NCBI GenBank assembly: GCA_039621445.1
Contig: CP154954.1
Coordinates: 46,293,847-46,357,846 of the forward strand
DNA length: 64,000 nucleotides
Origin: Euglena gracilis
Lineage: Eukaryota
Direction: 5' to 3'
Made by a program: the position numbers and the translations under genes. The notes beneath the pieces were generated by a model, which saw nothing but the letters and a program-made list of their open reading frames with translations, did not search any database and was not told the origin of the DNA. Below, piece after piece: positions 36,885 through 64,000 of the stretch (positions are counted from its first letter, which is position 1; every line of letters begins with the position of its first letter).

Positions 36885-36956
36885 ACACATGTAGCTTAGC
36901 GGTAAAGCGCTCGTTTCACAAGTACGAGGTCGTGGGTTCGACTCCCACCATGTACG
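36885..36956 (+). pseudogene. tRNA-like sequence (Val CAC-like pseudogene or SINE head)
   Basis: 72 nt; D arm GCTT/AAGC, T arm GTGGG-TTCGACT-CCCAC; acceptor stem 5 of 7 pairs; anticodon stem unpaired in canonical register. Confidence 0.55.
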
Positions 36957-43924: not shown

Positions 43925-46900
43925 GCCCCCCAAAACGGGTGGGCAACAAAAGGGATTTGCCCCAAATCAGTTGGGCAACAAAAGGTATTTGCCCCCCAAA
44001 ACGGGTGGGTAACACAGGGGATTTTGTTATTTTGGGGCCTTGGAACAGTTGGGCAACAAAAGGGATTTGCCCCCCAAATCAGTTGGGTAACACAAGGGAT
44101 TTTGTTATTTTGGGGCCCTCGAACAGTTGGGGGTGTCTGGGACGCGGGGGGGACGCGGGGGGGGACGCGGGGGGGGACGCGGGGGAGACGCCATTTTTGG
44201 GACGGTGAATTAGTAGTAGTGATTAGGAATTTGCTACGAGAAAATTTTAGCCAAATTAGGATTCTACCACAACAAATTAGGAATCACCTACCCCAAATTA
44301 GGAATCACCCACCACAAGTTAGGAATCACCCACACCAAATTAGGAATCACCAACCCCAAATTTGCCTGAAATTAGGAATCAGCCTCCTAAATTTGGCTGT
44401 CTCGAGAACAAAATTTTGGTTCCAAAGTGGGACGCGGGGGGGACGCGGGGGGGACGCGGGGGAGACACCCCCGTTGGGCAGCAAAAGGGATTTGCCCCCC
44501 AAAACGGGTGGGTAACACAAGGGATTTTGTTATTTTGGGGCCCTGGAACAGTTGGGCAGCAAAAGGGATTTGCCCCCCAAAACGGGTGGGTAACACAAGG
44601 GATTTTGTTATTTTGGGGCCCTGGAACAGTTGGGCAGCAAAAGGGATTTGCCCCCCAAAACGGGTGGGTAACACAAGGGATTTTGTTATTTTGGGGCCCT
44701 CGAACAATTGGGCAACAAAAGGGATTTGCCCCCCAAATGAGTTGGGCAACAAAAGGGATTTGCCCCCCAAAACGGGTGGATAACACAAGGGATTTTGTTA
44801 TTTTGGGGCCCTCGAACAGTTGGGCAACAAAAGGGATTTGCCCCCCAAATCAGTTGGGCAACAAAAGGGATTTGCCCCCCAAAACGGGTGGGTAACACAA
44901 GGGATTTTGTTATTTTGGGGCCCTGGAACAGTTGGGCAACAAAAGGGATTAGCCCCCCAAAACGGGTGGGTAACACAAGGGATTTTGTTATTTTGGGGCC
45001 CTCGAACAGTTGGGCAACAAAAGGGATTTGCCCCCCAAATGAGTTGGGCAACAAAAGGGATTTGCCCCCCCCCAATCAGTTGGGCAACAAAAGGGATTTG
45101 CCCCCCAAATCAGTTGGGCAACAAAAGGGATTTGCCCCCCAAAACGGGTGGGTAACACAAGGGATTTTGTTATTTTGGGGCCCTGGAACAGTTGGGCAGC
45201 AAAAGGGATTTGCCCCCCAAAACGGGTGGGTAACACAAGGGATTTTGTTATTTTGGGGCCCTGGAACAGTTGGGCAACAAAAGGGATTTGCCCCCCAAAA
45301 CGGGTGGATAACACAAGGGATTTTGTTATTTTGGGGCCCTCGAACAGTTGGGCAACAAAAGGGATTTGCCCCCCAAATCAGTTGGGCAACAAAAGGGATT
45401 TGCCCCCCAAAACGGGTGGGTAACACAAGGGATTTTGTTATTTTGGGGCCCTGGAACAGTTGGGCAACAAAAGGGATTTGCCCCCCAAAACGGGTGGGTA
45501 ACACAAGGGATTTTGTTATTTTGGGGCCCTCGAAGAGTTGGGCAACAAAAGGGATTTGCCCCCCAAATGAGTTGGGCAACAAAAGGGATTTGCCCCCCCC
45601 AATCAGTTGGGCAACAAAAGGGATTTGCCCCCCCAAAACGAGTGGGTAACACAAGGGATTTTGTTATTTTGGGGCCCTGGAACAATTGGGCAACAAAAGG
45701 GATTTGCCCCCCAAATCAGTTGGGCAACAAAAGGGATTTGCCCCCCAAAACGGGTGGGTAACACAAGGGATTTTGTTATTTTGGGGCGCTCGAACAGTTG
45801 GGCAGCAAAAGGGATTTGCCCCCCAAATCAGTTGGGCAACAAAAGGGATTTGCCCCCCAAAACGGGTGGGTAACACAAGGGATTTTGTTATTTTGGGGCC
45901 CTGGAACAATTGGGCAACAAAAGGGATTTGCCCCCCAAATCAGTTGGGCAACAAAAGGGATTTGCCCCCCAAAACGGGTGGGTAACACAAGGGATTTTGT
46001 TGTTTTGGGGCCCTCGAACAGTTGGGCAGCAAAAGGGATTTGCCCCCCAAAACGGGTGGGTAACACAAGGGATTTTGTTATTTTGGGGCCCTCGAACAAT
46101 TGAGCAACAAAAGGGATTTGCCCCCCAAATGAGTTGGGCAACAAAAGGGATTTGCCCCCCAAAACGGGTGGGTAACACAAGGGATTTTGTTATTTTGGGG
46201 CCCTCGAACAGTTGGGCAACAAAAGGGATTTGCCCCCCAAATCAGTTGGGCAACAAAAGGGATTTGCCCCCGAAAACGGGTGGGTAACACAAGGGATTTT
46301 GTTATTTTGGGGCCCTGGAACAGTTGGGCAGCAAAAGGGATTAGCCCCCCAAAACGGGTGGGTAGCACAAGGGATTTTGTTATTTTGGGGCCCTCGAACA
46401 GTTGGGCAACAAAAGGGATTTGCACCCCAAATGAGTTGGGCAACAAAAGGGATTTGCCCCCCCAATCAGTTGGGCAACAAAAGGGATTTGCCCCCCAAAA
46501 CGAGTGGGTAACACAAGGGATTTTGTTATTTTGGGGCCCTGGAACAATTGGGCAACAAAAGGGATTTGCCCCCCAAATCAGTTGGGCAACAAAAGGGATT
46601 TGCCCCCCAAAACGGGTGGGTAACACAAGGGATTTTGTTATTTTGGGGCCCTCGAACAGTTGGGCAGCAAAAGGGATTTGCCCCCCAAAACGGGTGGGTA
46701 ACACAAGGGATTTTGTTATTTTGGGGCCCTGGAACAGTTGGGCAACAAAAGGGATTTGCCCCCCAAAACGGGTGGGTAACACAAGGGATTTTGTTATTTC
46801 GGGGCCCTCGAACAGTTGGGCAACAAAAGGGATTTGCCCCCCAAATGAGTTGGGCAACAAAAGGGATTTGCCTCCCCAATCAGTTGGGCAACAAAAGGGA

Positions 46901-48892
46901 TTTGCCCCCCAAAGCGAGTGGGTAACACAAGGGATTTTGTTATTTTGGGGCCCTCGAACAGTTGGGCAACAAAAGGGATTTGCCCCCCAAATGAGTTGGG
47001 CAACAAAAGGGATTTGCCCCCCCCAATCAGTTGGGCAACAAAAGGGATTTGCCCCCCAAATCAGTTGGGCAACAAAAGGGATTTGCCCCCCAAAACGGGT
47101 GGGTAACACAAGGGATTTTGTTATTTTGGGGCCCTGGAACAGTTGGGCAGCAAAAGGGATTTGCCCCCCAAAACGGGTGGGTAACACAAGGGATTTTGTT
47201 ATTTTGGGGCCCTGGAACAGTTGGGCAACAAAAGGGATTTGCCCCCCAAAACGGGTGGATAACACAAGGGATTTTGTTATTTTGGGGCCCTCGAACAGTT
47301 GGGCAACAAAAGGGATTTGCCCCCCAAATCAGTTGGGCAACAAAAGGGATTTGCCCCCCAAAACGGGTGGGTAACACAAGGGATTTTGTTATTTTGGGGC
47401 GCTCGAACAGTTGGGCAGCAAAAGGGATTTGCCCCCCAAATCAGTTGGGCAACAAAAGGGATTTGCCCCCCAAAACGGGTGGGTAACACAAGGGATTTTG
47501 TTATTTTGGGGCCCTGGAACAATTGGGCAACAAAAGGGATTTGCCCCCCAAATCAGTTGGGCAACAAAAGGGATTTGCCCCCCAAAACGGGTGGGTAACA
47601 CCAGGGATTTTGTTGTTTTGGGGCCCTCGAACAGTTGGGCAGCAAAAGGGATTTGCCCCCCAAAACGGGTGGGTAACACAAGGGATTTTGTTATTTTGGG
47701 GCCCTCGAACAATTGAGCAACAAAAGGGATTTGCCCCCCAAATGAGTTGGGCAACAAAAGGGATTTGCCCCCCAAAACAAGTGGATAACACAAGGGATTT
47801 TGTTATTTTGGGGCCCTCGAACAGTTGGGCAACAAAAGGGATTTGCCCCCCAAATCAGTTGGGCAACAAAAGGGATTTGCCCCCCAAAACGGGTGGGTAA
47901 CACAAGGGATTTTGTTATTTTGGGGCCCTGGAACAGTTGGGCAGCAAAAGGGATTAGCCCCCCAAAACGGGTGGGTAGCACAAGGGATTTTGTTATTTTG
48001 GGGCCCTCGAACAGTTGGGCAACAAAAGGGATTTGCCCCCCAAATGAGTTGGGCAACAAAAGGGATTTGCCCCCCCAATCAGTTGGGCAACAAAAGGGAT
48101 TTGCCCCCCCAAAACGAGTGGGTAACACAAGGGATTTTGTTATTTTGGGGCCCTGGAACAATTGGGCAACAAAAGGGATTTGCCCCCCAAATCAGTTGGG
48201 CAACAAAAGGGATTTGCCCCCCAAAACGGGTGGGTAACACAAGGGATTTTGTTATTTTTGGGCCCTCGAACAATTGGGCAGCAAAAGGGATTTGCCCCCC
48301 AAAACGGGTGGGTAACACAAGGGATTTTGTTATTTTGGGGCCCTCGAACCGTTGGGCAACAAAAGGGATTTGCCCCCCAAAACGGGTGGGTAACACAAGG
48401 GATTTTGTTATTTTGGGGCCCTCGAACAGTTGGGCAGCAAAAGGGATTTGCCCCCCAAATGAGTTGGGCAACAAAAGGGATTTGCCCCCCAAAACGGGTG
48501 GGTAACACAAGGGATTTTGTTATTTTGGGGCCCTGGAACAATTGGGCAACAAAAGGGATTTGCCCCCCAAATCAGTTGGGCAACAAAAGGGATTTGCCCC
48601 CCAAAACGGGTGGGTAACACAAGGGATTTTGTTATTTTGGGGCCCTCGAACAGTTGGGCAGCAAAAGGGATTTGCCCCCCCAAAACGGGTGGGTAACACA
48701 AGGGATTTTGTTATTTTGGGGCCCTCGAACAGTTGGGCAGCAAAAGGGATTTGCCCCCCAAAACGGGTGGGTAACACAAGGGATTTTGTTATTTTGGGGC
48801 CCTCGAACAGTTGGGCAACAAAAGGTATTTGCCCCCCAAATCAGTTGGGCAACAAAAGGGATTTGCCCCCCAAAACGGGTGGGTAACACAAG
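43925..48892 (+). repeat. Tandem satellite of ~34-bp and ~44-bp modules (34/78/112-bp periods)
   Basis: CAGTTGGGCAACAAAAGGGATTTGCCCCCCAAA alternating with CGGGTGGGTAACACAAGGGATTTTGTTATTTTGGGGCCCT(C/G)GAA. Confidence 0.95.
44129..44472. mobile_element. Second copy of the 3-bp-TSD MITE, inserted in the satellite
   Basis: GGGGGTGTCT...AGACACCCCC, TSD gtt. Confidence 0.68.
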
Positions 48893-56087: not shown

Positions 56088-59000
56088 AATATATATTGAA
56101 GGTGACCTTTGCTCATCTTCCGCTAACCAACCTCCGCACCCTTACAACACTCTTTTGTACATTACACCCACAGTATAAGCTACCCGCGACCTGTGGCGGC
56201 ACAGGGAGTCACAAGGGGGTTCCTCTTGTGGCGAGGGCCAAAAGAGACATTTCCCTGGGCCCGGGGCGCGGTTTGGGTGAAGCTGTGCTACCCACCGTGA
56301 TGAGTATGGCAATCACAAACCAACGGTGGTTTTTTTGAAACAAAAAAACACAGTTTTTGGTTTTTTTCGAAAAAAACCAAAAAAAACACCATCCCTGGCT
56401 GTGGACCTTCTTGGCCATTTGGGCCAACTTTTTTACTTTTGGCAAGTTAAGGTCAGCATTCCCAAATTTGGCAAATGACAAGGGTTTCTGACAGACAATT
56501 GACATTAATATGACATTTAGACATTTGTCAAAAACAGAAACCCCGGTCCGCGTTAGGAATGGCCAATCCCACATTAATGTTCGCCCTCCCACAGGGGTAT
56601 TCCAGTTTTTTTTTTCTTCGGCAGGAGCTTTGTTAGGGTTTTTTTTGTTTTGGGCCAGATGGTGCCAGATTTTGATTTGGGCTGCTATTTCCATTTTTTT
56701 AGTCATTTTTTTGGTCATTTTTTAGCCCAAAATGACCAAAGAAATGCCTCAAGGGCCCCAGGCACTTCCTGGAAATGTTCATTTTTGGCATATTTTTGTT
56801 CACATGTTTGCGCATTTTTGCACATGCTCCATGCCTTTTTTATGCACGTTTGATGACTTTACAGCACGCAGTGCTTTTTAGGGTATGCCCATTTTCAACT
56901 GCTAAGGGTCCCGGGAGTAACATCCAGATGTGGCGAAAAAGGCGGGGTTCAGAGGCAAAGGACCGCAAAAGTTGCGGGGCTGGGTGGTGAAAGGTTCCTG
57001 GCCGGGGGGTTCGGCTGCTGCCGATTGCCAGACCGTGAAGACCTGACTCTCCTTGCTGCTGGAGCGTACAGGCACAAGTTGACGACTGCGGATTTCCATT
57101 GTTGTGTTGGGAAGGTGTCTACCCCGGGCGCCCCCCCTGCGGGTGTCGGACAGAAAACCCCAGCCCCCTGGCCGGCTGACTCCTGCCCGTCACCCACCCC
57201 TGGGGCTGCCGTTCCCTGGCCAGGGCCCAGTGTTTTTCCGGGTGGTGGAGGGCTCAGGCCACCCCCCGTTTCGCCCACTGGTATACCCCCCGACCAGAGG
57301 GGGGTGCGTAGGATCGAATTAGCTTTTTCGTGGAAATCTTGAACAAAATCAAAATTCCGCTCCAATGAAAATGATTCTCCAAACTTTGATCCCCATGAGG
57401 CCATTTCACTCCCCCTTTCTTCCGGCATGCAAAACATTGAGAATGGGTAAGGGTGGTGTTTTGTTCACTGAAATGGTGGTCAAAAAGCAACAACAGCACA
57501 CCGTGAATGAGGAAAGGTGGGACCTGACCTTTGAACTTGAAATTCTCAAAACTGACAATTCTTCAATGAAATAATTCTTGAGGACTTCAATTCTCAATTG
57601 TTGGAACAAAGAAACCCACAAAAGTCTGCGGAAGCAAATTGTGCTGAATTGGAACCTCAAATTAGGCTTTTCCTATAGAACGCGCATTCTGCGCGGAATG
57701 AAAAATTCCGTGTTTTCAAAAGCTTCCGCCCTGCCATTTTTGACTGTCGGACGCCCCCCGACAGTCGACACTCCCTCCCTTGCGACATTAGTCGGACCCT
57801 CAAAAAAAAATGAAAATTGAACAAAAAGCGAAGAAATGGAAAAAAATCAGAATGAAACGAATGCAAATGAGAATCCTTCACAATGTCTTGAGAAAGAGCG
57901 TGATGAAACGCCTATGCCCCTCGCTTGGTGTTGCCTTGCCACAAAAACAAGGCACACGGCACCACTTAGCGGCTCCACAAAAAAAATGCGAAAACGTCCC
58001 CTTAAAAATCCAAGCGCCCCCCCCCCCACAGGTTGGGGGCATTAAAAAAATGCCAAGAAAAAAAATTGCCACAAACTCTGTGAATGTCATTCAAAATTTA
58101 AATGAAAACTGGGCTAGCGCCCCCCCCCCACCCGATCAAAAAAAATCGTGGGGAGAGTTCTGACTTTTTGCACCCCGGAGGGAAAATGTTGGAGGGAAAT
58201 TTTTGGCTCCCCCCCCCCCCGAACATTCGGCGTGACCGCTTGGGGAGAGTTCGGACAGCCCCCCCCCCCCCGGTGCTTGTGACTGACTTTCTCATGGCTC
58301 ACCAAAAAACCCGAATTCTTGGATTGGACGTTCTCTTGCACTACACAACCTTGGTGGACATCCGAAAGGCAACCAACCCTTCATGAATGAAATCCGGTGA
58401 AATTCACTTAAAAAATAACCATTCATAGGGTCGTCGCGTGGTGTATCATACATCAACTGAAAAATCAGGCGATCTCCATCACGGGCATGGGAATGGGCGC
58501 CCCCCCCCCTCAACCGCAACACGTTTGGAGGGAGCTCACCCAAAAATCGGAGAAATTCAGCCCCCCCCCCCCCCGCATCCACGGAGAAGGTGAGGCTTCT
58601 TCCCCCTTGCAATGTCCACCAATGATTCGCAATCCAAACAAATCATCAAAACTCCACACATTTTGGGCCGCTCTCCTACAGGGGCTATGGCTCGACCTTG
58701 GTAAAAAAAATCCAAATCCTTCGGTCCCCCTTTCCATTCACGGTATGGGAAGGTGAGGTCAGGTTGGGGTGAGGAATATAGGCAGTGGGGTTCGGGGCTC
58801 GGGTAGCGGGTGATGGGGCCGTTTACAGTGAGGCAAGCCCCAACGGGGCTGGGCTATGGACAAGTTGGGTGGTGGTGTATTCGGTTGATTGGGTAAAAAG
58901 GCTTCATCTCCTCGTCTCGTCTCCTCATCTCATCTCCTTGTCTCGTCTCCTTGTCTCGTCTCCTTGCTTGCGTAGGGTGCTCGCCTCCTTCCTGCGGTGG

Positions 59001-59347
59001 TGCGCTCGCACTTTTCCCTTGGGGCTCCCTTGGGTGTGCTTGGAGCCTCCAAGTCCTCAAAACCTGTGAGAGCAAGGCGAAAGAGAAGAGCAAGCACAAA
59101 ATATGCACGGAGAGAGAAGGAGAGAGAGAGAGAGAGATCAAATTCATCACATGCTCGAAAAATCAAAACATATGAGAATCATGGAGTCAAAAACAAAAGG
59201 TATGATGCACATAAGCAATGCATTGCAAGCACACAAACAACTTGCCGAAACAGCACTTGGCCCGACTCAAAGCAAGAGCCTCAAACATTTGGGCTCCCCG
59301 ATCAAAAAAAAAAAGCAAAATGGACCGAGCCTTCAACTTTCGGCTCA

Positions 59348-62300
59348 CTAGGGTTTCAAAGATTTTTTCAATTCGGACATCAAATCGACCCCTAGGTTTT
59401 TCTTCGTGCAATACCTCACCAACTCCTCACTAAATCGGTGTATGAAATTCCCCACCGGCTCCCAGGTTTCCTCCCCCTCGTTGTAACCAACCCATTTCGT
59501 GAGGAACTCCCAGATTCCCCCCTTCTTTCGGTGGTTCAGAATTTTTTCAACTTCCCACTCATCAGGCATTGCTTCCTCTTCTTTTTCGGTCCTCTTGAAA
59601 AAGAATAAAGGCACCCCCTCACCAAAAACTTCAGGCTCTTTGTACTCCTTAAGGAAACTACGATGAACCTTCATTTCCATCCCGGGTTTAATTTCAATAA
59701 TGTAACTCCTCTCCCCCTCCCGGGCTTTAATAATCCCAGGTCCAATCCATCTGGAATCCAATTTTTCTCCGGATCCTTCGGGTCTCCTATACCACACTTG
59801 GGTTCCCAATTTTAAGGGTACCAACTCCCTCCTCCCTTGGTTGACCCAACTCGCTTGAACCCAATGTGAGTGGTTGAGAACCTTAGCAACTTTTTCATCC
59901 ACCTCCCTTATTCGGCGAAAGAAACTTTGAGCGTCTTCACACTCCTTCGATGGTTCATAGGGTATCCCCCCAATGGGTCTATCCCTTCCAAATAAAATCT
60001 CATCAGGACTAAAACCACTCTCCCCCTTTGTGTCATGAATGCGATCCAAAACTTGGGGAAGTGCTTCCACCCAATTCATTTTTTCCTCCACAAACAACTT
60101 TCGGAGGATTTCCATTATTTGTTGGCCGGCTCTCTCCACCCTCCCATTTGCTTGGTGGTGGTAAGCTTGGGAAAATGCTTGCCGAATTCCCATGAGAGAA
60201 CACATGGTTTGCCACCATGTGTTGACAAAATGGCTCCCTTGGTCACTTGAAATTATTGACGGGACTCCAAAGGGTTTCCATTGGGCTTTAAGCATTTCCT
60301 TGGCCAATTTTGCACCCGTTAATCCTTTATCAAAACACGGTATGGCTACAATCCAACCGGAATGTCGGTCCACGCAAACAGCCATTGTGTTGTACTCCCC
60401 CCCCTCGTACAACACCTTCGGCATTTTGAAAAGATCGATAGCCACACTTACCATGGGTGCGGGTGGTATGGGTGTTGAGTCAATGGGTCCTTTCAATGTC
60501 TCCCCCCTCGAGCTTGCTTGACATGTTGTGCAATTTTTGCTACAACTGTCAGTGAAAACTTTCGCCTTCTTTTCATCAGCCCATGCATACCTCAAATTGA
60601 CGTGCCTCCACACCTTTTCCGGACCAACGTGTCCAAGAAATTTGTGGTTTTCAAGGATGATCATTTCCTGAAAACTTAGTGGAATGCACAACTTCTCCTC
60701 TCGAAACATTTGGTTTTTGTGGACTTTCACCCCCTTTGGCCACTCACCATTTTCTTGTGTTGCTTGCCAAATCTTTTTCCACGTGGGACACAAAGTGTAT
60801 GCAACCACCCAATCTTGCTCCCAAACCGAATTTGTTCCCTTAGGGGTTACACTTGGAGTTGGCGTGGCCACACCTTCTCCCGTGCACGTTCCCCCCCTCG
60901 GTAACTCATTGGATGAAAGTTTTGGGTCGGTCACCAAATTACCCGCGGGGTCCACTCCATCCCAAAAAGTGACTCTCAACTTTTTGTCCTTTTTCCCCTT
61001 TGACCTGGGCCCTTGTGAGTGTGTGTCAACGGTGGTGTCTATGCCTCCCGGATTTACTACACTCTCGGTTCCCCTCTCTTGCATGCTATCCATAGAATCT
61101 TTTGGTTCCACCAATTTCCCGCTACGGGTTATCACTCCTCTAATCCACGTGTTACGGTTGTTGGGCTGATTTTTCACTCTAATCCACAAACAATTTCTTT
61201 CGTCTTCCCGTTCCTCTCTTATGAGTTCCTCCATTTCTTCCTTATCCTCGGCTGAACCGTGTTTGCTTACGTCTCTTAATGCTTGTGAGGCCGGGTAAGC
61301 CCACCGACTCAAAATGTCGGCAATTGTGTTTTCTTTACCCGGTATGTACCCCACCGTCAAATCATATTTTGAAAAAATCTGGTGCCATCGTGCCCTCCTA
61401 CCCACCGGACCACTGGGGGTATCGAGCACCTCTTTTGACCATGCCTCCAAACTTTGGTGGTCGGTCAACACCAAAACGGGTTGAAGACCGATCCAACTTT
61501 CCCATTTTTGGAGAGCCAAAATTATGGCATAAGTCTCCAACTCACGGGGGGTCCATTTCCTTTGCCCCACGGTAAGTTTTCGGGACATGAAGGCAATAGG
61601 CACCGTTTTCTTATCCATCACATCTTGGGGTGTGGGCTTACCATTTCCTTCCTTTAGTTGTTCTAGTGTAGCCCCCACGGCGTACCCACTTGCATCTACC
61701 CTTAATACAAAGGGTTTATCGGGGTCTACACGTTGTAGGATTAAGCCCGAACACAAACGCTTCTTCAACTCCTCAAACGCTTGGAGATCCCCCTCCCCAA
61801 ATTCAACTCTTTTTTTGCTTCCTTTTTTACCAACATCCCTAGGCACCTTCAATTTGTCTTGCAACGGTGCGGCAATTTGAGCATACATATGGATGTATGC
61901 GTTGTAGTAGTTGGTAAAACCAAGGAAAGCTCTTAATGCGGTAATGGTTGTGGGAACCTCCCATTTCTCAATGGCACGAAGTTTGCCCGGTGCTGGCCAT
62001 CGGGCACCATGACCCAAAATTTGGCCACAAAATTCCACTTCCTTGATGAACAATTTTGCCTTTTTGGGGTCCACCACAAAAAATTCTTTGGCCAACAAAT
62101 CCAAAACTCGGCACAAATCCCGTTTGTGTGCCTCTAGGAGGTCTTCCCCCTCCCCAACGGTTGTCCCCACCAAAATATCATCTATGTATGGGGTTGCTAT
62201 GTCCCTTACGGGTGCTAGCCTCTCATCCATCATTTGTTGAAATTGTTGTGAGGCGTTAGTTAACCCCATTACATTGACCCTCCATTGGTAGAGACCCTTT

Positions 62301-62926
62301 GGTGTGAAGGAGCAAGTTATTGGCCGGCTATCCGGGTGAAGCGGTTGTTGGTGGAATGCTTGTTTTAAGTCCAAAATGGAGAACATTTGGTTGCCACCAT
62401 GCTTCACCAGGATATCTTCGATTTTCGGAAGAGGGTAGTTGCACCTACGGGTTTGGCTATTGGGTCCCCTCATGTCAACAACCCCCCTCCAAGGAAAATC
62501 GGGAGACTTTTTGGGCACGGGGAAAGTTTGTGAGAGCCATTCTGAATTTTTTGTTGTGGCTGGCTCGATGAATTTCATATCGATCCAATCTTGAGTGATT
62601 TTTTCCAAAGCTTCTTTTCGTTCCCCGTGCATGAAGAATGGTTTTTGTCGAGTTGGTGTTGCTCCTTCCTTCAAAGGTATAAAAGCATACCCATAGGGTC
62701 CCCTTACGGGTGGGTCCGGGTATACCGTTGACCTAAAAACCGTTCCTTCATACTTTTGTTGAATTTCCTCCCTTAAAAGCCTTAACTTGCCTTCATCCTT
62801 ATCTTCCTCCTCTTCATTATTCGCATCCCCCCCCTCCCTTGCAATTATCATCCGTCGGATGGGTTGGGAGGTTGCTTCGGACACGTTCAAATTTTTGTGC
62901 GAAAAAATCAGGGGTCGGTCATCCAA
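59348..62926 (-). CDS. pol: Gypsy pol: RT, RNase H, integrase, chromodomain
   Basis: LDLKQAFHQ, YIDD; RVDASG, RELE, TDH, ADILSR; HxxxGH..CxxC, AIDLF, SDQGSHF, QANGRVER; WIGP; chromodomain WEVEKIL...FLTKWVGY...TWEP. Confidence 0.95.
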   Translation of the reverse strand: MDDRPLIFSHKNLNVSEATSQPIRRMIIAREGGDANNEEEEDKDEGKLRLLREEIQQKYEGTVFRSTVYPDPPVRGPYGYAFIPLKEGATPTRQKPFFMHGERKEALEKITQDWIDMKFIEPATTKNSEWLSQTFPVPKKSPDFPWRGVVDMRGPNSQTRRCNYPLPKIEDILVKHGGNQMFSILDLKQAFHQQPLHPDSRPITCSFTPKGLYQWRVNVMGLTNASQQFQQMMDERLAPVRDIATPYIDDILVGTTVGEGEDLLEAHKRDLCRVLDLLAKEFFVVDPKKAKLFIKEVEFCGQILGHGARWPAPGKLRAIEKWEVPTTITALRAFLGFTNYYNAYIHMYAQIAAPLQDKLKVPRDVGKKGSKKRVEFGEGDLQAFEELKKRLCSGLILQRVDPDKPFVLRVDASGYAVGATLEQLKEGNGKPTPQDVMDKKTVPIAFMSRKLTVGQRKWTPRELETYAIILALQKWESWIGLQPVLVLTDHQSLEAWSKEVLDTPSGPVGRRARWHQIFSKYDLTVGYIPGKENTIADILSRWAYPASQALRDVSKHGSAEDKEEMEELIREEREDERNCLWIRVKNQPNNRNTWIRGVITRSGKLVEPKDSMDSMQERGTESVVNPGGIDTTVDTHSQGPRSKGKKDKKLRVTFWDGVDPAGNLVTDPKLSSNELPRGGTCTGEGVATPTPSVTPKGTNSVWEQDWVVAYTLCPTWKKIWQATQENGEWPKGVKVHKNQMFREEKLCIPLSFQEMIILENHKFLGHVGPEKVWRHVNLRYAWADEKKAKVFTDSCSKNCTTCQASSRGETLKGPIDSTPIPPAPMVSVAIDLFKMPKVLYEGGEYNTMAVCVDRHSGWIVAIPCFDKGLTGAKLAKEMLKAQWKPFGVPSIISSDQGSHFVNTWWQTMCSLMGIRQAFSQAYHHQANGRVERAGQQIMEILRKLFVEEKMNWVEALPQVLDRIHDTKGESGFSPDEILFGRDRPIGGIPYEPSKECEDAQSFFRRIREVDEKVAKVLNHSHWVQASWVNQGRRELVPLKLGTQVWYRRPEGSGEKLDSRWIGPGIIKAREGERSYIIEIKPGMEMKVHRSFLKEYKEPEVFGEGVPLFFFKRTEKEEEAMPDEWEVEKILNHRKKGGIWEFLTKWVGYNEGEETWEPVGNFIHRFSEELVRYCTKKNLGVDLMSELKKSLKP

Positions 62927-62939
62927 AAGCGACTTCTTT

Positions 62940-64000
62940 GATCAAACCCACTCAAAGGTAGTTGTAAACCGAATTTGTGCAAATGGGCCGTGCCCCCCTC
63001 TTGGGGTAAAATTTTGGAAGTGTTTGAATGACGCCGTTTTCTAAAATCACGCACACCAAAGAAAAATGTGAGCTGGGGAGTTTCCAAAACCAAAGCTCGG
63101 TGATGTGGAAAAACTCCAAGTTTTGCTTGGGCAAGCCATGGGAATGACAAAATGGCATCCACTTTTATGTTTGCTTCGTAAAATTGCACTTCATACTCAA
63201 AACATTCGGGTGGTGTCCCATTATTATCCTCCCCAAGCAACTTCATTCTCACCTTAGTGCACCTTGTCCCCCACTTAAAACTTGGCCGTTAGCCGTTTCA
63301 AACTTAGGGGGATTTTCAGCTGAGTGCATTAGGTGATCGCTTATGAATCCTTGCTTTATCAGGTTTGCTTCCGCCCCCGTATCCACCAAAATATTCATAT
63401 CCCGTTCCTCCCCATTGACCAAAATTACCTTTGTGCGAATCAAAAGTTGCCGATCCTTTGAAAATTTGCTCACCCCTGTTGGTGAATACGTTTTTTTTAC
63501 CATACGTGACTTCAAACGTACAACCTTTGGTTCCTTAGGCGTGTTAGTGCTAGTGGGGGGCTTGTTACCCTCTATCAACAAGGCCCAAACTCCCCACTTC
63601 ACACCTCCCATAGGTTTCCCATCCACTTCGAAAAGCTTTGTTCCAGGCTGAACATACAATTTTTGTGTCGCCTTTCGCACAAGTTCTCTAACCCATCCCC
63701 TTTGCCAATCTGGAACCATGCAAATTGCATCACACGGGGTTTTTTGCAACTTTTTTGCCACCTTATGCCATAACGACCATGGGGGAATCAACCACACCGT
63801 GCCCCCCTTCCCCCAATCAACACTCAAGGCATTTTCCTCCTTCGTCAAAAAAGAAGCACATTGAGAATTTTTGATTGAAGCAAAACAATCCATTTCGGCT
63901 CTCCTTTGAAATTTCTCCTCAATCAATTTCACAAAGGAGTTTCTCACGGCATAGTCCTCCCTTTTGAAGGAAAATTTCTCCTCCTTAAAATCAAGGGCCG
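62940..64000 (-). CDS. Upstream polyprotein part: Dam-like N6-adenine methyltransferase domain + aspartic protease (frameshifts at ~63270 and ~62940)
   Basis: Frame open to window end: EDYAV..MDCFAS..N..ENALSVDW..WLIPPWSLW..ICMVPDW..W, then ILVDTGAEANLI..ETANG; DAILSFPWL follows in the next frame. Confidence 0.75.

What the first reader, a model, noticed from the sequence alone, without database searches (positions are those of the whole stretch)
63560..64000. Ty3/Gypsy chromovirus encoding a Dam-like N6-adenine DNA methyltransferase upstream of its protease
Seen: one open frame (to the window end) reads EDYAV..MDCFASIKNSQCASF..ENALSVDW..VWLIPPWSLW..AICMVPDW...W and continues directly into the protease motif VDTGA. 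RT-RH-DDE integrase-chromodomain follow. Established: D.FAS..N, (D/E)AL...W, NPP(W/F) and .VP.W are the motif series of phage Dam-type adenine methyltransferases. Retroelements carry this domain mainly in tyrosine-recombinase DIRS elements, where it lies after RT/RH, not in integrase-type Gypsy elements. Inference: a Gypsy lineage captured an adenine MTase between gag and PR, pairing a DNA 'writer' with a chromodomain 'reader', possibly to mark its own cDNA or insertion sites. In this copy the catalytic motif is IPPW (63777-63788; ATT is one change from AAT=N), so it may be inactive.
Basis: partly seen in the sequence, partly recalled or inferred. Interest (0 to 1): 0.88.

Follow-up and report, generated by a model that had tools for sequence, protein, structure and literature searches.

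The report
Dead Dam-carrying Gypsy retrotransposon copy
The window ends in a broken copy of a Gypsy-type jumping gene that carries a phage-like adenine methyltransferase domain just before its protease, a real and striking design that a 2026 preprint has already described in Euglena.

Summary
Window 63249-63998 (minus) is one open frame with the motifs as quoted. It matches Pfam Dam PF05869 (E 7e-12, 45.8 bits, cut-off 28.1), PHROG 111 and TIGR01712, and a T1-type phage Dam by hhalign (97%). It folds (pLDDT 93.9) as a class I methyltransferase core closest to N6-adenine enzymes. PR, RT, RNase H, DDE integrase and a chromodomain follow.

It is not a one-off. All 7 long relatives scanned carry Dam before PR/RT, preceded by a C5 cytosine methyltransferase (order DNMT-Dam-PR-RT-RH-IN-Chromo).

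This copy is dead. It has IPPW where 14 of 15 close relatives and 147 of 154 wider relatives have Asn. Its nearest relative is identical in 74 of 75 residues and differs only there. Two one-base frame breaks split PR from pol.

The class is already in print: "DAM-LTR" and "EpiLTR" elements of Euglena gracilis (bioRxiv 10.64898/2026.05.21.726589, May 2026). One relative, 80% identical, is an E. gracilis transcript.

So the finding is real and correctly read, but already known. What the domain methylates is still open.

The parts
63579..63998 (-). Dam-like N6-adenine methyltransferase core (aa 1-140 of the open frame). Motif I is DCFAS and motif IV is IPPW. The frame is open to the window end.
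   Evidence: Pfam PF05869 E 7e-12. PHROG 111. TIGR01712. hhalign 97.1% to a T1-type phage dam methylase. AF2 pLDDT 93.9. Fold matches.
63786..63788 (-). ATT (Ile) codon at the position of the catalytic Asn of NPP[WFY].
   Evidence: Codon read. Among close relatives covering it, 14 of 15 have Asn, 1 has Lys and 0 have Ile. Among wider relatives 147 of 154 have Asn. P0016 is identical in 74 of 75 residues and differs only here.
63459..63578 (-). Variable linker between the Dam domain and the protease.
   Evidence: 18-50% identity between family members here, against 56-77% in Dam. Predicted disordered in relative P0003.
63081..63458 (-). Aspartic protease (VDTGA), split by the first frame break.
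   Evidence: PF13975 and PF13650 match aa 194-242, below their cut-offs. Alignment to relatives across the break.
63249..63267 (-). First frame break: a stop at 63249-63251, with the reading continuing in another frame from 63252.
   Evidence: Many other copies have one more base at 63267 (X1 10 contigs, X8 4, X15 1, X20 1).
62908..62926 (-). Second frame break, between the PR/linker piece and the pol ORF.
   Evidence: Other copies have one more base at 62924 (X1 3 contigs, X8 1, X15 1).
62018..62515 (-). Reverse transcriptase.
   Evidence: PF00078 E 6.5e-19, aa 138-303 of ORF 59348-62926.
61364..61789 (-). RNase H.
   Evidence: PF17917 E 2.2e-23 and PF17919 E 4.3e-21.
60158..60685 (-). Integrase: H2C2 zinc domain and DDE core.
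   Evidence: PF17921 E 6e-5 (23.5 bits, just under its 25.5-bit cut-off) and PF00665 E 9.5e-13.
59435..59557 (-). C-terminal chromodomain.
   Evidence: PF00385 E 1.7e-7, 31.5 bits against a cut-off of 25.1.
59348..59350 (-). Stop codon of pol. The 3' LTR must lie at lower coordinates, but its limits were not determined.
   Evidence: The tail has no second copy in the window.

Best explanation
The window ends inside a decayed insertion of a high-copy Ty3/Gypsy, chromovirus-like LTR retrotransposon. It belongs to the 'DAM-LTR / EpiLTR' class described in Euglena gracilis.

Shown: in intact relatives one long ORF encodes, in order, a compact C5 cytosine DNA methyltransferase, a trimmed phage-T1-type Dam-like N6-adenine methyltransferase core without a target-recognition domain, then PR, RT, RNase H, DDE integrase and a chromodomain. 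The window holds everything from the first residues of the Dam domain onward. The DNMT, any gag and the 5' LTR would lie beyond base 64000. This copy is non-functional: Ile replaces the catalytic Asn, and two single-base frame breaks lie between Dam/PR and pol.

Inferred, not shown (about 0.45): in intact copies the DNMT-Dam pair is made as part of the polyprotein upstream of PR. It is released or carried into the particle and methylates the element's own reverse-transcription product, either cDNA or the RNA:DNA intermediate. A new insertion would then arrive carrying 6mA, a mark of permissive chromatin that host AMT1 could maintain, together with 5mC. The chromodomain would steer integration. 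This is the model proposed in the preprint.
For: Domain identity:
- Pfam Dam above its gathering score, PHROG 111 and TIGR01712.
- tblastn to T1-like phage 'dam methylase' genes, covering 82-83% of the domain.
- hhalign of the family profile against that phage protein: 97.1%, E 6.4e-11, with DxxA(A/S)..N, WLNPPYS and ILLPA aligned.
- AF2 model with pLDDT 93.9.
- Fold matches: CAPAM Z 10.0, T4 Dam Z 8.6, E. coli Dam Z 8.0, DpnM Z 7.0, plus DIMT1/Erm/KsgA. Foldseek top hit CAPAM, E 3.4e-4.

Element identity: RVT_1, RNase H, rve and Chromo.

Family architecture:
- 7 of 7 relatives scanned have DNMT before Dam, and the 3 complete ones continue to Chromo.
- The DNMT motifs are conserved.
- The DNMT of P0003 matches DNMT1, DIM2 and M.HhaI by fold, E 1e-6.

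Constraint: Dam is 56-77% identical between lineages, like PR (53-78%) and unlike the linker (18-50%). NPP[WFY] is present in 141 of 154 relatives and DxFA in 110 of 134.

Decay of this copy.

Copy number: 6692 contigs of run X1 and 1381 of run X8 were laid on 7 kb.

Host: P0013, 80% identical with NPPW, is EukProt Euglena gracilis EG_transcript_20987.

Prior description and model: preprint sections 6, 7, 8 and 11.
Against: - In this copy the Pfam match covers only profile positions 17-79 of 169. TIGR01712 is far below its equivalog cut-off (41.4 against 97.05 bits).
- The domain aligns only to aa 72-186 of a 245-aa phage Dam, so it lacks what flanks the core in the phage enzyme.
- The best fold match is an RNA enzyme, the cap-specific adenosine methyltransferase, not a DNA Dam.
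- The preprint reports that representative eukaryotic DAMs added no 6mA when expressed in dam-deficient E. coli (passage seen).
- Iyer et al. 2016 place the DIRS1 methyltransferase with PCIF1 and call all copies probably inactive (passage seen).
- The DNMT, gag, 5' LTR and PBS of this very copy are outside the window, and no LTR limit could be set.
- The host is inferred from one named relative at 80% identity. The runs that hold the stretch bear coded names.
- Transcription of this copy is not shown. The 'RNA?' runs are guesses.
Confidence: 0.85

Rival explanations
1. The domain is a real adenine-N6 methyltransferase, but its substrate is RNA. It could be the cap-adjacent adenosine of the element's own transcript, as for PCIF1/CAPAM, or another RNA adenine, rather than DNA.
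For: The best structural match is CAPAM, by both methods (Foldseek E 3.4e-4; VIA Z 10.0, 128 residues aligned, against 8.6 for T4 Dam). rRNA adenine methyltransferases (DIMT1, Erm, KsgA) score like the DNA Dams. The domain has no target-recognition domain. Iyer et al. 2016 group the DIRS1 methyltransferase with PCIF1. The preprint found no 6mA in E. coli DNA.
Against: By sequence the domain is tied to phage DNA Dam families and not to PCIF1. Pfam at E up to 1 lists only Dam and protease families. Two sequence searches of the PDB, which holds CAPAM, found nothing relevant at E up to 10. hhalign to a T1-type phage Dam gives 97%. No structure of a PF05869 member seems to be in the PDB, so the fold ranking cannot compare like with like. 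The domain sits next to a DNA cytosine methyltransferase. The preprint reports more 6mA on DAM-LTR insertions.
Confidence: 0.15
2. The Dam-like domain, perhaps together with the DNMT, is kept as a non-catalytic nucleic-acid or SAM-binding module. It sits where Ty3/Gypsy elements usually have the nucleocapsid and would help to bind or package template RNA or cDNA.
For: 0 of 10 relatives contain a CCHC zinc knuckle anywhere in the predicted protein. The E. coli assays were negative. Iyer et al. propose that the DIRS1 domain merely binds transcripts.
Against: The catalytic triplet is kept in 141 of 154 relatives and the motif I Asp-x-Phe-Ala in 110 of 134. That conservation is hard to explain without catalysis or at least SAM/adenine binding. 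The relatives' predicted proteins may simply start downstream of a separate gag ORF.
Confidence: 0.1
3. The methyltransferase segment is a one-off: a nested DIRS fragment or an assembly chimera in this single copy.
For: The preprint warns that Euglena shows mixed DIRS/LTR clades and possible nested insertions or assembly artefacts.
Against: The same in-frame order Dam-linker-PR is found in 10 of 10 aligned relatives, from separate contigs, at 29-61% identity. It is also found in an 80% identical transcript. Thousands of contigs in independent runs cover 63552-64000. No tyrosine recombinase family was hit by the 13 window ORFs scanned.
Confidence: 0.01

Closest known systems
Euglena DAM-LTR / EpiLTR retrotransposons (Fernandez-Moreno et al., bioRxiv 10.64898/2026.05.21.726589, May 2026)
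   Same: A Ty3/Gypsy-like LTR element with a chromodomain that encodes a DAM domain and, in a subset, a DNMT. A relative 80% identical to the window's frame is an E. gracilis transcript. Relatives carry DNMT, DAM and Chromo in one ORF.
   Different: This insertion is decayed (IPPW, two frame breaks) and its DNMT part is outside the window. The text I could read does not give the domain order DNMT-Dam-PR-RT-RH-IN-Chromo. The figures and supplements, which may give it, could not be seen.
Chlorophyta DAM-chromovirus-like elements and Cymbomonas tetramitiformis EpiLTRs (same preprint, sections 7-8)
   Same: Chromovirus architecture plus a DAM domain, with a DNMT in a subset.
   Different: According to the preprint the Cymbomonas DNMT is appended to the 3' end of pol. 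In this family the DNMT lies at the 5' side, directly before Dam.
DIRS1-group tyrosine-recombinase retrotransposons (MT domain after RT/RH)
   Same: A homologous Dam-like domain. The Atlas's nearest clusters are all eukaryotic, and one of the three shown carries PF05869 in 11% of its members. The preprint derives the LTR-borne DAMs from DIRS.
   Different: This element has a DDE integrase rather than a tyrosine recombinase, and the methyltransferase lies before PR rather than after RNase H.
T1-type phage Dam methylase (Pfam PF05869, TIGR01712, PHROG 111)
   Same: Motifs I and IV and the strand order of the catalytic core are shared: hhalign 97.1% and about 26% identity over 82-83% of the domain.
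   Different: Only aa 72-186 of the 245-aa phage protein are matched. The score is below the TIGR01712 equivalog cut-off. This copy has Ile in place of the catalytic Asn.
PCIF1/CAPAM cap-specific adenosine-N6 methyltransferase
   Same: It is the best structural match. Iyer et al. 2016 group the DIRS1 methyltransferase with it. That CAPAM's catalytic motif is NPPF is my recollection and comes from no call.
   Different: No sequence-level match was found. Its substrate is RNA, and it is a much larger protein with a helical domain.
DNMT-carrying retrotransposons of Symbiodiniaceae and streptophytes (de Mendoza et al. 2018, PMC5890265; search listing and abstract start only)
   Same: Retrotransposons that captured a DNA methyltransferase.
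   Different: Those carry cytosine methyltransferases only. According to the preprint they represent separate DNMT acquisitions.

Membership tests
Pfam PF05869 Dam (T1-type phage N6-adenine DNA methyltransferase) | Profile score above the curated gathering cut-off | tested here: met
   45.8 bits against 28.1, E 7e-12. 50 of 58 members of alignment A2 also pass at E 0.001.
Pfam PF05869 Dam (T1-type phage N6-adenine DNA methyltransferase) | Motif I (Asp-x-Phe/Ala-Ala) in the SAM pocket | tested here: met
   DCFAS at aa 37-41. DxFA in 110 of 134 relatives. It aligns to LDAAAS of the phage enzyme.
Pfam PF05869 Dam (T1-type phage N6-adenine DNA methyltransferase) | Catalytic motif IV Asn-Pro-Pro-aromatic | tested here: not met
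   This copy has IPPW. The family meets the feature: 141 of 154 have NPP[WFY] and 14 of 15 close relatives have Asn.
Pfam PF05869 Dam (T1-type phage N6-adenine DNA methyltransferase) | Class I (Rossmann-like) SAM methyltransferase fold | tested here: met
   AF2 pLDDT 93.9. CAPAM Z 10.0, T4 Dam Z 8.6, E. coli Dam Z 8.0.
Pfam PF05869 Dam (T1-type phage N6-adenine DNA methyltransferase) | Full-length equivalence to the phage enzyme (TIGR01712 equivalog cut-off) | tested here: not met
   41.4 bits against a cut-off of 97.05. Only aa 72-186 of the 245-aa phage protein align.
Pfam PF05869 Dam (T1-type phage N6-adenine DNA methyltransferase) | N6-adenine methylation of DNA | not testable with these tools
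   The preprint reports no gain of 6mA in dam-deficient E. coli for representative eukaryotic DAMs (passage).
DAM-LTR / EpiLTR retrotransposons (2026 preprint) | Ty3/Gypsy-type pol with PR, RT, RNase H and DDE integrase | tested here: met
   PR is also supported by alignment.
DAM-LTR / EpiLTR retrotransposons (2026 preprint) | DAM domain encoded in the element's own polyprotein frame | tested here: met
   Dam and VDTGA are in one frame in the window and in 10 of 10 aligned relatives.
DAM-LTR / EpiLTR retrotransposons (2026 preprint) | Chromodomain | tested here: met
   PF00385, 31.5 bits against a cut-off of 25.1.
DAM-LTR / EpiLTR retrotransposons (2026 preprint) | C5 DNMT domain in the same element (defines the EpiLTR subset) | tested here: inconclusive
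   It lies beyond the window end in this copy. PF00145 hits all 7 relatives scanned; 5 reach its 22-bit cut-off and 2 (P0001 19.1, P0002 21.6) fall just below. In P0016, 74 of 75 residues identical to the window, the DNMT C-terminus runs straight into the window's first residues.
DAM-LTR / EpiLTR retrotransposons (2026 preprint) | Long terminal repeats | tested here: inconclusive
   The 5' LTR is outside the window. The tail downstream of pol has no second copy in the window.
DAM-LTR / EpiLTR retrotransposons (2026 preprint) | Host Euglena | tested here: inconclusive
   A relative 80% identical is an E. gracilis transcript. No genome is held for the window and run names are coded.
DIRS1-group retrotransposons | Tyrosine recombinase instead of DDE integrase | tested here: not met
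   rve and Integrase_H2C2 were found. No tyrosine-recombinase family was hit in the 13 window ORFs scanned.
DIRS1-group retrotransposons | Methyltransferase domain downstream of RT/RNase H | tested here: not met
   Dam lies upstream of PR and RT.
PCIF1/CAPAM-like cap adenosine methyltransferases | Detectable sequence relationship to PCIF1 | tested here: inconclusive
   The fold match is the best of all. No sequence match was found in Pfam at E up to 1 or in PDB chains at E up to 10.

The most novel reading that the evidence does not exclude
The DNMT and the Dam-like core are joined by a hinge of only about 6 residues, while a disordered, variable linker separates them from PR. They may therefore be released as one two-headed enzyme. 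Its adenine head has no target-recognition domain and structurally resembles the RNA cap methyltransferase CAPAM most closely. It may act not on duplex DNA but on the element's own RNA or RNA:DNA replication intermediate. The pair may also stand in for the missing zinc-knuckle nucleocapsid.
Probability: 0.15. Interest if true: 0.75.

Novelty: already known. Interest (0 to 1): 0.33.

Why it matters
A retrotransposon that brings its own adenine and cytosine DNA methyltransferases together with a chromatin reader could set the epigenetic state of its new insertions instead of waiting for the host to do so.

This window adds one decayed copy. It also adds some detail:
- the domain order in this family;
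- the very short DNMT-Dam hinge against a long linker between Dam and PR;
- the absence of a target-recognition domain;
- a best fold match to an RNA cap methyltransferase.

The last point bears on a disagreement in the literature. Iyer et al. 2016 see the domain as PCIF1-derived and inactive. The preprint sees it as prokaryotic Dam-derived with the catalytic pocket kept. The substrate and activity of the domain remain untested.

Tried and rejected
- Own-genome search: no genome is held for this window, so genomic copies could not be collected directly.
- Sequence searches of the PDB with the protein and with the family profile gave nothing relevant. The only hits were three staphylopine dehydrogenase chains at E 0.4.
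- Two scans of metagenome contigs for related loci, one with the Dam/PR alignment and one with pol, found no confirmed relative. No DNA of relatives was obtained, so dN/dS could not be computed. Per-domain protein identity was used as a proxy.
- LTR search: the 4.4 kb downstream of pol has no second copy in the window. LTR limits, PPT and PBS were not determined.
- Read laying showed only 40 of 654 base differences, and position 63787 was not among them. The reads therefore say nothing on Asn against Ile in other copies. That rests on proteins.
- Transcription: the runs labelled 'RNA?' are guesses, and the one RNA run holds a small share. This was not taken as proof of expression of this copy, nor of any habitat.
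- Earlier findings of this scan: none for this genome.
- Protein Atlas: only unnamed eukaryotic clusters, one with PF05869 in 11% of members.
- Ten other long ORFs of the window gave no credible Pfam family.
- Rejected readings: a chance motif resemblance (E-values) and a one-off nested DIRS fragment.
Full report
**1. The observation**

Read on the minus strand, window 63249-63998 is one frame with no stop up to the window end (249 aa).
- EDYAV;
- MDCFASIKNSQCASF;
- ENALSVDW;
- VWLIPPWSLW, with IPPW at 63777-63788 and its first codon ATT at 63786-63788;
- AICMVPDW;
- after a linker, ILVDTGAEA.

The 1192-aa ORF 59348-62926 on the same strand carries the following:

| Pfam family | E-value |
|---|---|
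| RVT_1 | 6.5e-19 |
| RT_RNaseH | 2.2e-23 |
| Integrase_H2C2 | 6e-5 |
| rve | 9.5e-13 |
| Chromo | 1.7e-7 |

The Dam/PR frame stops at 63249-63251. A 114-aa piece (62908-63252) continues PR in a second frame. Pol then starts in the third frame. Laid on the uninterrupted ORFs of four relatives, the three pieces tile end to end.

**2. Is it a methyltransferase domain?**

Sequence evidence:
- Pfam PF05869 (Dam) matches aa 21-83 with E 7e-12 and 45.8 bits, above the 28.1-bit gathering score.
- PHROG 111 'DNA methyltransferase' matches at E 1.9e-9.
- NCBIfam TIGR01712 'phage N-6-adenine-methyltransferase' matches at E 1e-10, but far below its equivalog cut-off of 97 bits.
- tblastn finds 454 phage records, mostly T1-like phages whose gene is annotated 'dam methylase'. 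It covers up to 83% of the 140-aa domain at about 26% identity.
- A profile of 58 relatives aligned by hhalign to one such 245-aa phage protein gives 97.1% probability and E 6.4e-11 over phage residues 72-186. The motifs line up: DxFAS..N with LDAAAS..N, WxNPPWS with WLNPPYS, and ICxxP with ILLPA.

Structure evidence:
- With that alignment AlphaFold2 gives a confident model (mean pLDDT 93.9, pTM 0.87).
- Foldseek's best PDB matches are the cap-specific adenosine methyltransferase CAPAM (E 3.4e-4), then DIMT1/KsgA and Dot1.
- The Foldseek-independent search gives CAPAM Z 10.0, T4 Dam 8.6, DIMT1 8.4, ErmE 8.2, E. coli Dam 8.0 and DpnM 7.0.

So the fold is a class I SAM methyltransferase core, and its nearest solved neighbours are adenine-N6 enzymes. 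The alignments to T4 and E. coli Dam span nearly the whole chains (5-257 and 9-266) but align only 104-106 residues. That means the target-recognition insert of those enzymes has no counterpart here.

**3. Is it part of the element or a one-off?**

A word-indexed search for longer proteins returned 12 relatives. All 7 of those scanned with Pfam have Dam preceded by PF00145 (C5 cytosine DNA methylase; 5 of the 7 reach its 22-bit cut-off, P0001 and P0002 fall just below). The three complete ones (1763-1911 aa) read DNMT, Dam, RT, RNase H, integrase, Chromo in one ORF. In an alignment of the Dam-to-PR stretch, 10 of 10 relatives carry the domain in frame before VDTGA.

The DNMT is compact, about 210 aa, with conserved DLFSGKGS, PCTEYS, ENPR and QKPTRIWGS blocks. 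In a model of relative P0003 it matches DNMT1, DIM2, M.HaeIII and M.HhaI by fold (E from 1e-6).

The window's first residues (ALDFKEEKF) follow directly on the last residues of that DNMT in the relatives. The window is therefore cut exactly at the DNMT/Dam junction.

In the P0003 model only residues 384-389 between DNMT and Dam are of low confidence. A stretch of about 40 residues between Dam and PR is disordered and poorly conserved (18-50% identity).

Between lineages the domains compare as follows:

| Domain | Identity between lineages |
|---|---|
| Dam | 56-77% |
| DNMT | 60-75% |
| PR | 53-78% |
| RT | 80-89% |
| RNase H | 82-89% |
| Dam-PR linker | 18-50% |

The two methyltransferase domains are thus held about as tightly as the protease.

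None of 10 relatives has a CCHC knuckle. The parts of their predicted proteins upstream of the DNMT are unconserved and predicted disordered. Gag was therefore not seen, and 'between gag and PR' is not shown.

**4. The state of this copy**

Where the window has IPPW:
- Of the 22 relatives returned cover the motif. Of these, 14 have Asn, 1 has Lys and none has Ile.
- Among 154 wider relatives that cover it, 147 have Asn and 141 have NPP[WFY].
- P0016 is identical to the window in 74 of 75 residues and differs only at this position.

The Ile is therefore private to this copy or its closest kin.

Contigs of four public runs laid on 57000-64000 show a very high-copy family: 6692 and 1381 contigs were laid from the two DNA runs. 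Many copies have one more base at 63267 and at 62924. Frame arithmetic shows that these are the two shifts separating the window's three pieces.

The copy is thus dead on three counts. Its RT, RNase H, integrase and chromodomain still score normally, so it is probably not old.

**5. Whose element is it, and is it in print?**

No genome is held for the window. One relative, 80% identical over 92% of the frame and carrying NPPW, is EukProt EP00667 Euglena gracilis EG_transcript_20987.

[quoted passage not shown] I read its abstract, passages, and sections 6, 7, 8 and 11. I did not see its figures or supplements. It reports:
- DAM domains in Ty3/Gypsy LTR elements, named 'DAM-LTRs' and claimed as the first identification outside DIRS;
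- at least four independent captures from DIRS-like elements;
- a Euglena DAM-LTR/DIRS group;
- 'EpiLTRs' in E. gracilis and Cymbomonas that combine DAM, DNMT and a chromodomain;
- conservation of Asn-Pro-Pro;
- more 6mA on DAM-LTR insertions in E. gracilis and ichthyosporeans;
- no gain of 6mA when representative DAMs were expressed in dam-deficient E. coli.

A second search found no other paper on this in Euglena. The class is therefore already described, and the window holds one decayed member. The host is inferred to be E. gracilis or a close relative.

**6. How it most likely works**

Shown: the architecture, the homology to T1-type phage Dam, the fold, family-wide retention of the catalytic motifs, and the decay of this copy.

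Inferred: in intact copies DNMT-Dam is translated upstream of PR as part of the polyprotein and acts on the element's reverse-transcription product. New insertions would then carry 6mA, which the host AMT1 could maintain, and 5mC. The chromodomain would guide integration. This is the preprint's model, and I put it at roughly 0.45.

Against it:
- the E. coli assays were negative;
- there is no target-recognition domain;
- the best fold match is to an RNA cap adenosine methyltransferase.

Iyer et al. 2016 (passage seen) group the DIRS1 methyltransferase with PCIF1 and consider it inactive. My data contradict 'inactive' at the level of motifs. By sequence they tie the domain to phage Dam rather than PCIF1. 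They agree that CAPAM is the closest solved structure. No PF05869 structure seems to be available for a fair comparison. An RNA or hybrid substrate (0.15) and a non-catalytic binding role (0.1) therefore remain open.

**7. Verdict**

The main correction is that the family carries a cytosine methyltransferase directly upstream of Dam. It is not novel, because a 2026 preprint describes the class. This particular copy is a dead insertion.

More distant relatives show other arrangements: Dam before DNMT in P0042 and P0101, and a protease before Dam in P0031. This fits the modular exchange the preprint describes.

Noticed in passing
window 36885-36956 (+): A tRNA gene is the only Rfam match in the window at gathering score (44.9 bits).
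   Followed up: no
window 57000-59340: The 2.3 kb downstream of pol is as heavily covered by contigs of the public runs as the element itself. It is full of G runs of 10-13 bases and T runs. It may hold the 3' LTR and/or other repeats, but no limits could be set.
   Followed up: partly
window 59107-59147: A (CT)n/(TC)n simple repeat lies just downstream of the pol stop. Read laying skipped it as a repeat.
   Followed up: no
window 56354-56383: A perfect 30-base palindrome: the self-match on the opposite strand is 100% identical.
   Followed up: no
proteins P0042, P0101, P0031 (relatives, not in the window): More distant Dam relatives have other domain orders. Dam is followed by a C5-DNMT in P0042 and P0101. 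A retroviral protease hit (19.8 bits, just under its 20.7-bit cut-off) lies upstream of Dam in P0031.
   Followed up: partly
relatives P0001-P0008, P0016, P0020: No CCHC zinc knuckle occurs anywhere in 10 relatives. The sequence upstream of the DNMT is unconserved, Ser-rich and predicted disordered. Where or whether this family encodes gag is unknown.
   Followed up: partly
window 46078-47374, both strands: Two 395-aa ORFs overlap almost fully on opposite strands. They give only sub-threshold, few-residue Pfam matches, which suggests low-complexity or repeat sequence rather than a gene.
   Followed up: no
run X20 laid on window 57000-64000: A metatranscriptome run labelled leaf litter gave 68 contigs on the stretch, 7 of them 99% or more alike. 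No habitat or expression claim is made from this.
   Followed up: no
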